Shown: positions 51,855 through 53,150 of the stretch, in pieces
Layout: the number at the start of each line of letters is the position of its first letter
Position numbering within the stretch: position 1 is the stretch's first letter
Origin: Candidatus Pacearchaeota archaeon
GTDB taxonomy: Archaea; Nanobdellota; Nanobdellia; Pacearchaeales; GW2011-AR1
Direction: 5' to 3'
Assembly: GCA_027021195.1 (NCBI GenBank)
Contig: JALUUW010000003.1
Location: forward strand, 4,843 to 68,842
DNA length: 64,000 nucleotides
Notes under the pieces: model-generated
The model's database searches: none
Told to the model about the DNA's origin: nothing
Seen by the model: only the letters and a program-made list of their open reading frames with translations
Translations under genes and position numbers: made by a program

Positions 51855-52475
51855 TCAAATGTCAAAAATCTTCTCTTTTCTTGAGACATTAATGATTTTT
51901 GTTTTTCCCATTTTTTCCTCAATCCCTTCAGCCTCATGAATGTGCGCGCTGATTAAGATGTCTGGCTTGAATTCTTTTACTGCCTTTTTTATTGCCTTGC
52001 TTCCTTTAAATCCTGAGAATTCCGCCTTGCTTCCATTGTGATGCATATGGGTTACCATAATTTTTTTATTGACTTTTTTAAGGGCATTGTTTCCTTTTTT
52101 CAGAGCATCAAAAATCTCTTTTTCTGTTGTATTAAACTCCAGTGCCCCTCCTGCCCCGAAAATACCCACTTTGTCTTTTACAAAAGAGTATCCATGAATG
52201 TTCTTGGTGTTTGGATACATTTCTGCAAGAAAATCCACTGTAGCAATAGATTCGTGGTTTCCATGAAGCAATAAAACCGGTTTTTCTGCTTTTGTGAAAG
52301 GGCCTACAATGTTTTTTACTGAGCTTTCTGCCAGAGTCAGGTCTCCTGCAAGTATTACTAAGTCAACATTTTCTTTTTTTGCCTTTTCAGCCAGCTTTTT
52401 CACTAGCCCAGTGTCTCCATGAATGTCTCCAACTGCAAGTATTCTTGTTTTTTTTCTGTTTCCTGGATGTTTCAT
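51855..52475 (-). CDS. calcineurin-like metallophosphoesterase
   Basis: ILAVGDIHGD, LAGDLT, GNHE, and GGA...HMH/SAHIHE. Confidence 0.8.
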   Translation of the reverse strand: MKHPGNRKKTRILAVGDIHGDTGLVKKLAEKAKKENVDLVILAGDLTLAESSVKNIVGPFTKAEKPVLLLHGNHESIATVDFLAEMYPNTKNIHGYSFVKDKVGIFGAGGALEFNTTEKEIFDALKKGNNALKKVNKKIMVTHMHHNGSKAEFSGFKGSKAIKKAVKEFKPDILISAHIHEAEGIEEKMGKTKIINVSRKEKIFDI

Positions 52476-52584
52476 GATATTAAATTAAAATTTTGATTAA
52501 TAAAGATTATTAATTTATTTTTTGGCTATTTTATAGAAGGTATTATTTTTTAAATGTTTTGGCAGATATATCCTTCCCAAAAGA

Positions 52585-52633
52585 TTTAAAAGGACTATAC
52601 TGTCTGGATATATACATTAAACTATACATATCC
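52585..52633 (+). promoter_or_regulatory. TATA-like box (52585-52592) plus imperfect inverted repeat GGATATATACAT-taaa-CTATACATATCC (52606-52633)
   Basis: Read directly from the sequence. The arms match 9/12. The element lies between the TATA box and the ATG of the wHTH gene. A third GGATATAT copy is at 52566-52573 on the minus strand. Confidence 0.35.
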
Positions 52634-52643
52634 GAGTATCAAA

Positions 52644-52910
52644 ATGAAAGACAATTTTGATATCTTTTTCAGGAGAAAGCCAGCTCTGATGCTGGTATCT
52701 CTTAAAAAGAATACAAGGATGAGGTATGGTAGTGTTTTGGCTAAGGAAGTTGACTGCACCTACAGCCATGCAGTGAAGATTTTGCAGACACTTGAAGACC
52801 TTAAGTTAGTTGTTTTTGAAAAAAAGGGGCGGATAAAAATTATACAGCTAACGAAGAAGGGAAGAGAAGTTGCAGATGCAATTGAAAACATTCAAAAGCT
52901 GATTAAATGA
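52644..52910 (+). CDS. small winged-helix transcriptional regulator
   Basis: RYGSVLAKEVDCTYSHAVKILQTLEDLKLVVFEKKGRIKIIQLTKKGREVA. Confidence 0.55.
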   Translation: MKDNFDIFFRRKPALMLVSLKKNTRMRYGSVLAKEVDCTYSHAVKILQTLEDLKLVVFEKKGRIKIIQLTKKGREVADAIENIQKLIK

Positions 52911-53052
52911 AAGCTTTTGGCTACCACGCCCCTGAAAGAGCCTTATGGGCAGAAGACAATAGCAGGCAGTATTTAGTTTAGGATTAGCCTGGATGCTTTA
53001 AGATATTTTTTATCCTATGCAATGCTTTTCTGTGTTTGGGATTTTATAAGCA

Positions 53053-53127
53053 TGGCCCTGGAGGGATTTGAACCCCCGACACCCAGATTAAGAGTCTGGT
53101 GCTCTAACCAGGCTGAGCTACAGAGCC
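53053..53127 (-). tRNA. tRNA-Lys (anticodon CUU)
   Basis: The reverse complement is GGCTCTGTAGCTCAGCCTGGTTAGAGCACCAGACTCTTAATCTGGGTGTCGGGGGTTCAAATCCCTCCAGGGCCA. It has a 7-bp acceptor stem, anticodon loop CTCTTAA and T-loop GGTTCAAAT. No CCA is encoded. Confidence 0.85.
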
Positions 53128-53150
53128 ATAATTCAATATCAGAGAAGAAG

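What the first reader, a model, noticed from the sequence alone, without database searches (positions are those of the whole stretch)
52564..52633. Shared TATA(TA)C palindromic motifs downstream of the TATA boxes of the wHTH gene and the Cdc48/sHsp operon
Seen in sequence upstream of the 88-aa wHTH gene:
- TATA-like tttaaaag (52585-92).
- GGATATATACAT-taaa-CTATACATATCC (52606-33, arms matching 9/12).
- A third GGATATAT on the other strand at 52566-73.

Seen in sequence upstream of the operon at 54452:
- TTTAAATA (54334-41).
- ATACATGTAT, TGTATATACA and GTATATAC (54344-77).

The heptamer TATATAC occurs once in the first region and twice in the second. TATACAT occurs twice in each.

Established knowledge: archaeal repressors commonly bind palindromes overlapping the TSS. 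In Pyrococcus, Phr represses exactly an hsp20 gene and an AAA+ (cdc48-type) gene plus itself.

Inference: a small heat-shock-type regulon controlled by the wHTH and/or the AbrB-like protein.

Caveat: the motifs are AT-rich in AT-rich DNA.
Basis: partly seen in the sequence, partly recalled or inferred. Interest (0 to 1): 0.5.

Follow-up and report, generated by a model that had tools for sequence, protein, structure and literature searches.

The report
Conserved start-site operators, Pacearchaeota Cdc48 operon
The repeated TATAC-type motifs are real, evolutionarily conserved control sites sitting on the transcription start of two gene units in tiny uncultivated (DPANN) archaea, one a small DNA-binding protein gene and the other a protein-quality-control operon that also carries a previously undescribed structured RNA leader; whether one regulator serves both is not shown.

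Summary
All coordinates are correct, and the two regions are the only TATAC-rich intergenic regions of 41 in the window.

Both elements are conserved in related Pacearchaeota/Nanoarchaeota genomes:
- Operon promoter, 79 of 80 loci: TTTAAATA-GTATAT-N6-TGTGTATACACA-N5-(A)GGTATA(TA)C.
- wHTH promoter, about 42 of 43 loci: TTTAAAAG-N12-TGAATATATACA, often with a second copy 42 bp upstream.

Both main boxes are 12-bp near-palindromes centred 18.5 nt after the TATA box. That places them on the start site, which lies at +22 in these largely leaderless genomes. This is classical repressor-operator geometry.

The "shared motif / one regulon" reading is only partly supported:
- The two family motifs differ consistently, and cross-scoring with position weight matrices is at chance level.
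- The wHTH box travels with the wHTH gene even where no Cdc48 operon is nearby.

I favour two autoregulated units that work like Phr/HSR1 but use unrelated proteins and motifs.

New here: about 60 of 82 operon leaders carry a structured RNA. Its 7-bp hairpin is 98.8% paired, with 79 compensatory changes. It has no Rfam match.

The parts
51855..52475 (-). Metallophosphoesterase gene (MPE), divergent partner of the wHTH gene
   Evidence: Pfam Metallophos, E = 1e-18. It is adjacent and divergent to the wHTH gene in all loci that have enough flank, including L082 where the operon is far away.
52564..52577 (+). Upstream box of the wHTH promoter. In the window it reads agATATATCCttcc; the family consensus is GAATATATAyrTT. 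It lies about 42 bp upstream of the start-site box, between the two divergent TATA boxes.
   Evidence: TATA-anchored alignment of 38 promoters gives the consensus aAtATaTat.tT.C directly 5' of the BRE. It is less conserved than the start-site box.
52578..52592 (+). BRE plus TATA box of the wHTH gene (CAAAAGA-TTTAAAAG)
   Evidence: Near-invariant in 38 loci.
52605..52616 (+). wHTH start-site box TGGATATATACA. The family consensus TGAATATATACA is a 10/12 palindrome. The predicted transcription start is at about 52614-52616.
   Evidence: It is the most conserved non-TATA block in 38 promoters. In L007 and L039 the ATG follows the box directly. In 62 other promoters the ATG starts at +22 after the TATA box.
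52622..52633 (+).
   Evidence: Only weakly conserved (ACAYAT in a subset) and absent from leaderless orthologues. The inverted repeat is not conserved.
52644..52910 (+). 88-aa winged-helix protein, AF1382-like, with a conserved DCTYSHAVKILQ stretch (taken here as the recognition helix; inference)
   Evidence: Profile against PDB hits 2qvo (AF1382) at E = 4e-8. Foldseek TM-score is 0.78 to AF1382, followed by AspA, SmtB and MarR. Median identity to orthologues is 91%.
54327..54341 (+). BRE plus TATA box of the operon (cgcaaag-TTTAAATA)
   Evidence: Consensus AcCgAAAtaTTTAAATAGT in 79 loci.
54342..54347 (+). Box 1, GTATAC, abutting the TATA box (GTATAT in most orthologues)
54353..54364 (+). Box 2, TGTGTATATACA, with core GTATATAC at 54356-63. 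The family consensus is the perfect 12-bp palindrome TGTGTATACACA. The predicted transcription start is at about 54363-54364.
   Evidence: Present in 79 of 79 promoters: GTATAC 65 times, GTATATAC 14 times. Its 3' C lies +19 to +22 after the TATA box. In L074, L032 and L020 the ATG follows within 1-3 nt of the box.
54368..54377 (+). Box 3, AGGTATATAC, 13-15 nt after box 2. It is also the 5' arm of leader hairpin P1.
   Evidence: Present in most loci, including short-leader variants that lack the structured leader.
54367..54392 (+). Predicted 5'-terminal hairpin P1: AAGGU.AUAUAC-UUUUU-GUAUAACCUU. Box 3 pairs with box 4 (GTATAA, 54383-88).
   Evidence: Minimum-free-energy folds of 47 leaders. The support is weak, because two copies of a palindromic box pair automatically.
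54393..54409 (+). Conserved single-stranded linker (family consensus CUCUUUUCAACCCA). Together with the preceding ACCUU it forms the block ACCUCUUUUCAACC.
   Evidence: Alignments A3 and A4.
54410..54432 (+). Leader hairpin P2 (GACCGUGUC-AUUCC-GGCACGGUU)
   Evidence: 7 consensus pairs, 98.4-98.8% of cells paired, 57-79 compensatory cells, 0 of 500 shuffles as good, and collapse when partners are slid. The covariance model hits the window at 54387-54451 with E = 3e-5. There is no Rfam match.
54452..54829 (+). 125-aa zinc-ribbon protein with a weak AbrB/MazE-like C-terminal half, the first gene of the operon. The true start is probably the ATG at 54458 (MADIF...), as in orthologues.
   Evidence: Four Cys in two CxxC pairs, and the block VKMRLVGNSYAVSIPKEIV is invariant. 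Pfam MazE_antitoxin scores 19.8 bits against a cut-off of 24.7. TIGR02609 scores 24 bits against 55.9.
54826..55107 (+). 93-aa ORF with no family and patchy occurrence in orthologous loci
55104..57398 (+). CDC48-family AAA ATPase (copy a)
   Evidence: TIGR01243 at 1070 bits against a cut-off of 803.
57425..57808 (+). Small heat-shock protein (Hsp20)
   Evidence: Pfam HSP20 at 33.8 bits against a cut-off of 20.8. Only 26 homologue clusters exist. Where its context was seen (7 of the 80 loci and the one extra locus looked up, L081) it lies inside this operon.
57805..59988 (+). CDC48-family AAA ATPase (copy b)
   Evidence: TIGR01243 at 942 bits.

Best explanation
There are two separately conserved transcription units in Pacearchaeota-type DPANN archaea. 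Each carries its own operator-type near-palindrome on the transcription start site.

Unit 1 is the divergent MPE / wHTH gene pair.
- TGAATATATACA is centred 18.5 nt after the TATA box, so it spans about -10 to +2.
- A second copy usually lies 42 bp upstream, between the two divergent TATA boxes.
- The most likely binder is the 88-aa AF1382-like winged-helix dimer itself. It would repress its own promoter, and perhaps the MPE promoter, by blocking RNA polymerase recruitment after TBP/TFB binding.

Unit 2 is the operon zinc-ribbon/AbrB-like protein - (orphan ORF) - Cdc48 - sHsp - Cdc48.
- It has three GTATA(TA)C boxes at about 14-bp spacing: box 1 abutting the TATA box, the 12-bp palindrome TGTGTATACACA on the start site, and box 3 at about +5 to +15.
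- These are probably bound cooperatively by the product of the operon's first gene. That arrangement is the same as HSR1-cdc48-hsp20 in Archaeoglobus.
- In three quarters of genomes there is a second control layer: a 75-100-nt structured leader RNA made of a 5' hairpin, the single-stranded block ACCUCUUUUCAACC, and a covarying hairpin.

The AT-rich TATA-like core common to both operators is most simply explained by both having to sit in the obligatorily AT-rich -10 region of these promoters.

Shown: the elements, their positions, their specificity, their conservation, and the RNA hairpin. Inferred: repression, which protein binds which box, and a stress or heat signal.
For: Conservation and position.
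- Operon box 2 is present in 79 of 79 promoters, with its 3' C +19 to +22 after the TATA box.
- The wHTH box is conserved without indels in 38 loci.
- Sequence between the boxes is not conserved (information profiles).

Start-site geometry.
- 62 other BRE/TATA promoters have A/T/G at +22/+23/+24 after the TATA box, so leaderless mRNAs are the norm.
- In leaderless orthologues of both genes the ATG follows within 1-3 nt of the box.

Specificity.
- In 954 kb, clusters of 2 or more boxes occur only at operon promoters.
- Of 138 TATA+N10-18+TATAC arrangements, 109 are these two promoters.
- TATAC sits at that position in only 3 of 62 other promoters.

Two distinct motifs.
- Cross-matrix scores are at chance level.
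- The wHTH box stays with the MPE-wHTH pair when the operon is more than 8 kb away.
- Orthologues listed among representatives of 50%-identity clusters keep an ATATATA(C/T) box 13-17 nt after the TATA box, with a 14-bp repeat and no Cdc48 operon nearby.

Proteins.
- The wHTH has a dimeric-repressor-type fold, closest to AF1382, AspA, SmtB and MarR.
- The Cdc48 and Hsp20 assignments are above curated cut-offs.

Leader RNA.
-.
- G-U wobble pairs occur only if the + strand is read as RNA.

Precedent.
- Phr and HSR1 repress hsp20 and cdc48/VAT genes and themselves from sites overlapping the start site (PMC9133787, PMC10746257, PMC5852551).
Against: - There is no binding, expression or start-site data for any of these organisms. 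Every mechanistic step is inferred.
- In this window the two start-site boxes are 10/12 identical and sit at the same distance from the TATA box. Both families fit TG-NN-TATA-NN-CA. One regulator for both therefore remains possible.
- DNA binding by the 125-aa protein is not established. Its AbrB/MazE similarity is sub-threshold and the structure model is poor.
- Box 2 tolerates a 2-bp change of length at its centre (6 or 8 bp, scattered across genomes). This is unusual for a strict palindrome reader.
- Box 3 and box 4 may owe part of their conservation to RNA pairing.
- The 91% identity of the wHTH fits a global or architectural DNA-binding protein better than a one-promoter autoregulator.
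Confidence: 0.5

Rival explanations
1. One regulator, the highly conserved 88-aa wHTH, binds TG-NN-TATA-NN-CA operators on both promoters and forms a small proteostasis (heat-shock-type) regulon: itself, perhaps MPE, and the Cdc48/sHsp operon. The 125-aa protein is then a cofactor or an unrelated first gene.
For: - The operators have the same position: both palindrome centres lie 18.5 nt after the TATA box.
- Centre-aligned consensus 12-mers match 9/12, and the two window boxes match 10/12.
- Both promoters show about 14-bp phasing of boxes, as do distant wHTH promoters.
- The two units are near each other in most loci.
- The wHTH is the most conserved protein in the neighbourhood, as expected for a regulator with several constrained targets.
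- The wHTH fold is a proven sequence-specific reader of palindromes, whereas DNA binding by the 125-aa protein is unproven.
Against: - Cross-matrix scores are not above chance.
- The positions that differ are each strongly conserved within their own family: G versus A before TATAC, the TCTGAA flank, and box length.
- The wHTH gene and its box occur without the operon nearby.
- No wHTH-type box with at most 2 mismatches occurs in any other promoter-like context in 954 kb.
Confidence: 0.3
2. No dedicated regulator is involved. The boxes are unusually strong core-promoter elements, namely an AT-rich -10 proximal promoter element plus a C(-1)/A(+1) initiator. Downstream copies are conserved because they form RNA hairpins in the leader.
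For: - The -10 region of 62 other promoters is 85-90% A+T.
- The positionally anchored part of both boxes is TATAC|A ending exactly at the start site.
- Box 3 and box 4 pair in predicted leader folds.
Against: - TATAC occurs at that place in only 3 of 62 other promoters, and C at +21 has a frequency of only 0.15.
- The conserved G/C flanks (TGTG...CACA, TCTGAA) and the 12-bp dyad symmetry have no role in a core-promoter model.
- Box 1 abutting the TATA box and the wHTH upstream box lie outside any initiator.
- Box 3 is kept in loci that lack box 4 and the structured leader.
Confidence: 0.12
3. The similarity is chance similarity of AT-rich sequence in AT-rich intergenic DNA.
For: The window is 29-43% G+C, and the motifs are A/T-rich.
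Against: - Dinucleotide shuffles and the intergenic Markov simulation exclude it.
- So does conservation in 79 of 80 and about 42 of 43 orthologous promoters, against unconserved spacers.
Confidence: 0.02

Closest known systems
Phr heat-shock regulon of Pyrococcus furiosus
   Same: A repressor site overlaps the start site and blocks RNA polymerase recruitment. The targets are an hsp20 gene, a VAT/Cdc48-type AAA+ ATPase gene and the regulator's own gene (PMC9133787, PMC10746257).
   Different: - Phr is a larger winged-helix protein of arCOG01684. Neither the 88-aa wHTH nor the 125-aa protein is detectably related to it.
- Phr's site is described as TTTA / TGGTAA / AAAA within 29 bp. The sites here are TGTGTATACACA and TGAATATATACA.
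- The Phr targets are separate genes, each with its own site. Here they form one operon.
HSR1 (AF1298)-cdc48-hsp20 operon of Archaeoglobus fulgidus
   Same: The operon architecture is regulator first, then Cdc48, then Hsp20. There is an autoregulatory palindrome in the operon's own promoter (PMC9133787, PMC5852551).
   Different: - HSR1 is a Phr-family wHTH that binds CTAAC-N5-GTTAG.
- Here the first gene encodes a zinc-ribbon protein with a doubtful AbrB-like half, and the boxes are GTATA(TA)C repeats.
- Here there is also a structured leader RNA.
Bacterial first-gene stress repressors (my own knowledge, not tested here): CtsR with clpC, HrcA with CIRCE, and MraZ with its repeats
   Same: The repressor is encoded as the first gene of a chaperone/protease operon. 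It binds repeated boxes that overlap the core promoter and start site. MraZ is an AbrB-fold protein that binds a series of direct repeats.
   Different: These belong to a different domain of life, with different protein families, motifs and promoter machinery.
AF1382 / AspA / SmtB-ArsR / MarR small winged-helix dimers
   Same: The fold and size of the 88-aa protein match (TM-score 0.78 to AF1382; profile E = 4e-8). AspA and MarR-type proteins read palindromes as dimers, and AspA spreads from its site.
   Different: AF1382 has no known function. Sequence identity is only 24-29%. No metal- or ligand-binding residues were identified here.

Membership tests
Phr/HSR1 heat-shock regulators (arCOG01684) | Regulator protein homologous to Phr/HSR1 | tested here: not met
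   - A profile of the 88-aa family searched against all PDB sequences at E <= 10 lists 14 sequences (AF1382, AspA, SmtB, eS19 and others), none named Phr.
- No entry named Phr appears among the top 50 Foldseek PDB matches.
- A profile of the 125-aa family finds no wHTH protein at all.
Phr/HSR1 heat-shock regulators (arCOG01684) | Known operator sequence: Phr TTTA..TGGTAA..AAAA, or HSR1 CTAAC-N5-GTTAG | tested here: not met
   The conserved blocks in both promoter families are TGTGTATACACA / GGTATATAC and TCTGAATATATACATTAAA. Neither published motif (PMC9133787) is part of them.
Phr/HSR1 heat-shock regulators (arCOG01684) | Operator overlapping the transcription start site of hsp20 / cdc48 genes and of the regulator gene | tested here: met
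   Geometry only. Box centres lie 18.5 nt after the TATA box, and the start is at +22 judged from 62 leaderless promoters and from leaderless orthologues. Gene content is Cdc48 twice plus Hsp20. This is met as a way of working, not as membership.
Phr/HSR1 heat-shock regulators (arCOG01684) | Heat-inducible derepression | not testable with these tools
   No expression data exist for these uncultivated organisms.
AbrB/MazE/SpoVT swapped-hairpin DNA-binding domain (for the 125-aa protein) | Significant match to the family profile or fold | tested here: inconclusive
   - Pfam PF04014: 19.8 bits against a cut-off of 24.7, covering only 16 residues.
- TIGR02609: 24 bits against a cut-off of 55.9.
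- hhalign against B. subtilis AbrB (sequence typed in from memory): probability 0.1%.
- AlphaFold monomer: pLDDT 67, with no beta3-beta4 strands.
- Foldseek: no match with E <= 0.001.
AF1382-like small winged-helix proteins (for the 88-aa protein) | Sequence-profile and fold similarity over the whole length | tested here: met
   E = 4.4e-8 to 2qvo. Foldseek E = 8e-5 with TM-score 0.78. Pfam and NCBIfam wHTH families match only below their cut-offs.
Any described RNA family (Rfam 15), for the operon leader | Match to a curated covariance model | tested here: not met
   The best non-tRNA match is 26.7 bits against a gathering score of 50 (a nematode snoRNA model). Nothing is credible.
RNA thermometers (ROSE, fourU type), for the operon leader | Temperature-labile helix that sequesters the ribosome-binding site or the start codon | tested here: not met
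   The covarying hairpin P2 ends 12-25 nt before the ATG and does not include it. No Shine-Dalgarno sequence is evident. Temperature dependence itself is not testable here.

The most novel reading that the evidence does not exclude
Pacearchaeota have replaced the ancestral Phr/HSR1 heat-shock repressor by a new system. In it, the near-invariant 88-aa AF1382-like winged-helix protein is the master proteostasis regulator and reads TG-NN-TATA-NN-CA operators on its own promoter and the Cdc48/sHsp operon promoter. The operon's structured leader is a new class of archaeal cis-regulatory RNA that senses temperature or the operon's own zinc-ribbon protein. This would be the first stress-response circuit defined for DPANN archaea.
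Probability: 0.2. Interest if true: 0.7.

Novelty: new variant of a known kind. Interest (0 to 1): 0.55.

Why it matters
- Nothing is known about gene regulation in DPANN archaea. They have very few transcription factors and cannot be cultured alone.
- Two sharply defined operators, two candidate regulators and a leader RNA are conserved across about 80 genomes. This gives a testable regulatory circuit for which recombinant proteins and oligonucleotides suffice.
- It suggests that the ancient pairing of a regulator with Cdc48 and Hsp20 was kept while the regulator itself was exchanged.
- The leader RNA is unusual because these genomes are otherwise dominated by leaderless mRNAs.

Tried and rejected
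- Metagenome scan for further targets. I scanned metagenome contigs for the wHTH-type 14-mer TCTGAATATATACA. It was uninformative.
- Stand-alone sHsp genes as a regulon test. Only 26 homologue clusters exist. In the 7 of the 80 loci that carry the sHsp and in the one extra locus looked up (L081) it sits inside the same operon.
- Association between box-2 length (6 or 8 bp) and residues of either protein. Nothing survives multiple testing: the minimum p is 0.008 over 277 tests.
- Fold of the 125-aa protein. The model is poor (pLDDT 67), Foldseek finds only zinc-ribbon look-alikes, and hhalign against AbrB is negative.
- Rfam search of the region. Only tRNA-Lys was found.
- GTATAC avoidance, as would result from a restriction system. 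Rejected: 3 observed against 2.6 expected.
Rejected, because it is not conserved.
- Literature searches for Pacearchaeota/DPANN regulators, AbrB-Cdc48 links or AF1382 function. Nothing relevant was found.

Full report
**Observation**

- Upstream of the 88-aa gene: tttaaaag at 52585-92, GGATATATACAT at 52606-17, CTATACATATCC at 52622-33 (9/12 complementary), and ATATATCC at 52566-73.
- Upstream of the operon: TTTAAATA at 54334-41, ATACATGTAT at 54344-53, TGTATATACA at 54355-64 and GTATATAC at 54370-77.
- The heptamer counts are right.

The AT-richness caveat does not explain the motifs away.
- TATATAC and TATACAT exceed all dinucleotide shuffles: 11 against 2.6 expected, and 15 against 4.3.
- Of 41 intergenic regions, these two hold 7 and 3 TATAC words, and every other region holds at most one.
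- An order-2 Markov model of the intergenic DNA gives 4 or more hits within 60 bp in 0.9% of runs and never 6.
- The 12-mer TGWRTATAYACA with at most 1 mismatch hits only these two promoters in 64 kb.

**Organism and genes**

Homologues of both small proteins come from Pacearchaeota, Nanoarchaeota and 'Woesearchaeota' metagenome-assembled genomes.
- The operon is: 125-aa zinc-ribbon protein (probable start 54458), 93-aa orphan ORF, CDC48 (1070 bits), Hsp20, CDC48 (942 bits).
- Eighty genome loci show the same gene order: MPE(-) wHTH(+) ... TFS(-) signal peptidase(-) | zinc-ribbon protein(+) Cdc48(+). The sHsp and second Cdc48 follow in a subset.

**Operon promoter**

In 79 of 80 loci (the 80th is N-masked) the promoter reads ccgAAAyA-TTTAAATA-GTATAT-N~6-TGTGTATACACA-N4-6-(A)GGTATA(TA)C, often followed by tGTATAAcc.
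- Box 2 is GTATAC in 65 loci and GTATATAC in 14, including the window.
- Its 3' C lies 19-22 nt after the TATA box in both variants.
- Box 3 follows 13-15 nt later.
- In 954 kb of held sequence, clusters of two or more such boxes occur only at these promoters.

**wHTH promoter**

Thirty-eight promoters align on the TATA box without indels as [GAATATATAyrTT]-cCAAAAcA-TTTAAAAG-N9-T.TCTGAATATATACATTAAA. Four more show the same by eye.
It sits between the wHTH TATA box and the TATA box of the divergent MPE gene.

**Position relative to the start site**

- Sixty-two other BRE/TATA promoters in these loci have A, T, G enriched at +22, +23, +24 after the TATA box (0.68, 0.58, 0.45). Leaderless mRNAs are therefore the norm, and the start is at +22.
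- In L074, L032 and L020 the operon's ATG follows within 1-3 nt of box 2. In L007 and L039 the wHTH ATG directly follows ATATATACA.
- Both 12-bp near-palindromes are centred 18.5 nt after the TATA box, so they span about -10 to +2.
- The -10 region of ordinary promoters is 85-90% A+T, but only 3 of 62 carry TATAC there. The boxes are therefore not a general initiator.
- Only 29 of 138 TATA+N10-18+TATAC arrangements lie outside the two promoters, and some of those 29 are the same promoters missed by my tagging.

**One motif or two**

In the window the boxes TGGATATATACA and TGTGTATATACA are 10/12 identical. This is because the window has the rarer 8-bp variant of box 2.

Across the family the motifs differ at positions that are each conserved.
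- The wHTH matrix scores 16.4 bits on its own sites and 4.9 on the best operon site. That value is reached by chance in about 10% of 50-nt windows.
- The operon matrix scores 13.8 on its own sites and 1.0 on wHTH promoters, a value reached in 52% of windows.

The MPE-wHTH pair keeps its box when the operon is elsewhere (L082).

More distant orthologues, taken from representatives of 50%-identity clusters, were also examined (L085-L087).
- They keep the stretch DCTYSHAVKILQ (taken as the recognition helix; inference).
- They keep an ATATATA(C/T) box 13-17 nt after the TATA box, with a 14-bp repeat.
- Their gene neighbourhoods are different and contain no Cdc48.

The box therefore belongs to the wHTH gene, which is the signature of autoregulation. 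I conclude that two autoregulated units are more likely than one regulon. The shared TG-NN-TATA-NN-CA outline, identical placement and similar 14-bp phasing keep the single-regulator model alive.

**Proteins**

The 88-aa protein:
- It is an AF1382-like winged-helix protein (profile E = 4e-8; Foldseek TM-score 0.78), followed by AspA, SmtB and MarR.
- It is not Phr-like.
- It is strikingly conserved: median 91% identity, against 65-80% for Cdc48, TFS, signal peptidase and MPE in the same loci.
- A tight group of 12 clusters sits within a wider family of about 1,200 clusters.

The 125-aa protein:
- It has two CxxC pairs and an invariant block VKMRLVGNSYAVSIPKEIV.
- AbrB/MazE similarity is below every cut-off, and the structure model is poor. 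DNA binding is therefore plausible but unproven.

In about three quarters of loci the operon has a 75-100-nt leader, which is unusual in these leaderless genomes. It consists of:
- a 5' hairpin built from box 3 and box 4 with AGG/CCU extensions (weak evidence);
- the conserved single-stranded block ACCUCUUUUCAACC(C)A;
- a 7-bp hairpin;
- UAUAAUCA and then the ATG.

Evidence for the hairpin:
- All 7 pairs covary.
- 98.4% of cells are paired, with 57 compensatory cells. None of 500 shuffles does as well, and sliding the partners collapses pairing to 25-49%.
- A covariance model finds exactly one copy per locus, always here and always on the + strand. There are 60 hits with E < 0.01 in 82 sources, including 12 loci not in the seed alignment.
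- On that larger alignment, 98.8% of cells are paired with 79 compensatory cells.
- Frequent G-U pairs fit only + strand RNA.
- Rfam has nothing similar.
- The hairpin does not cover the start codon, so it is not a classical RNA thermometer. Its function is unknown.

**Comparison with known systems**

- The circuit works like Phr in Pyrococcus and HSR1 in Archaeoglobus. Those are repressors on the start site of hsp20 and cdc48/VAT genes and of their own gene, and HSR1 is the first gene of an hsr1-cdc48-hsp20 operon (PMC9133787, PMC10746257, PMC5852551).
- It is not a member of that family. The proteins and the motifs are different.

**Verdict**

- The cis-elements are real, specific and conserved.
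- This is a new variant of a known kind of circuit, with a new leader RNA attached.
- All mechanistic steps (repression, binder identity, stress signal) remain inferences.

Noticed in passing
window 54364-54451 (P2 hairpin 54410-54432); one copy per locus in 60 of 82 sources: A conserved structured 5' leader sits upstream of the zinc-ribbon/Cdc48 operon. It has the single-stranded block ACCUCUUUUCAACC followed by a 7-bp hairpin with compensatory changes in all pairs. It has no Rfam match and occurs only in this leader. Its function is unknown.
   Followed up: yes
window 52644-52910 and orthologues in L001-L080: The 88-aa winged-helix protein is far more conserved (median 91% identity) than neighbouring core genes: Cdc48 80%, TFS 72%, signal peptidase 65%, MPE 68%. 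This is unusual for a local repressor and suggests many constrained contacts.
   Followed up: partly
62 BRE/TATA promoters across L001-L081 and the window: ATG is enriched exactly at +22 to +24 after the TATA box, so leaderless mRNAs appear to be the norm in these genomes. The region from +11 to +21 is 85-90% A+T.
   Followed up: partly
L015, L030, L032, L033, L044, L048, L054, L063, L064, L080: about 25-50 nt upstream of the wHTH TATA box (not present in the window): A second conserved inverted repeat, TTCACT-N10-12-AGTGAA, has its right arm running into the upstream GAATATATA box. It is seen in roughly a quarter to a third of wHTH promoters and is unexplained.
   Followed up: no
L001, L002, L005, L010, L015, L027, L030, L031, L034, L036, L037, L062: between the leader and the zinc-ribbon gene: In these loci an extra small ORF, often hydrophobic, is inserted directly after the leader RNA and ahead of the zinc-ribbon gene. 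The leader therefore precedes different first genes.
   Followed up: no
window 54826-55107: A 93-aa ORF overlaps both neighbours by 4 nt. It has no Pfam or NCBIfam match and only weak, patchy tblastn matches in six other loci, mostly upstream of the zinc-ribbon gene.
   Followed up: partly
L085/L086 about 40-70 nt upstream of the wHTH ATG; L087 7940-7975: Distant wHTH orthologues have tandem 14-bp repeats after the TATA box: ATATATATTGCA-AT-ATACATATTGCA in L085/L086, and ATATATAC-N6-ATATATAT in L087. They also have a G-rich Shine-Dalgarno-like run before the start codon, unlike the Pacearchaeota group.
   Followed up: partly
L013 (DATKUW010000039.1) and L078 (JBAZBJ010000020.1): These contigs carry the full archaeal gene order (TFS, signal peptidase, zinc-ribbon protein; the Cdc48 gene was seen only in L013, as L078 ends just after the zinc-ribbon gene). 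They are filed under a 'Bacillota bacterium' and a 'Parcubacteria group bacterium' genome bin, so they are probably binning contaminants.
   Followed up: no
window 53052-53128 (-): A tRNA-Lys(CTT) gene lies between the wHTH gene and TFS. The stretch between the two conserved units varies in content and length (0.2-4.5 kb) among loci.
   Followed up: no
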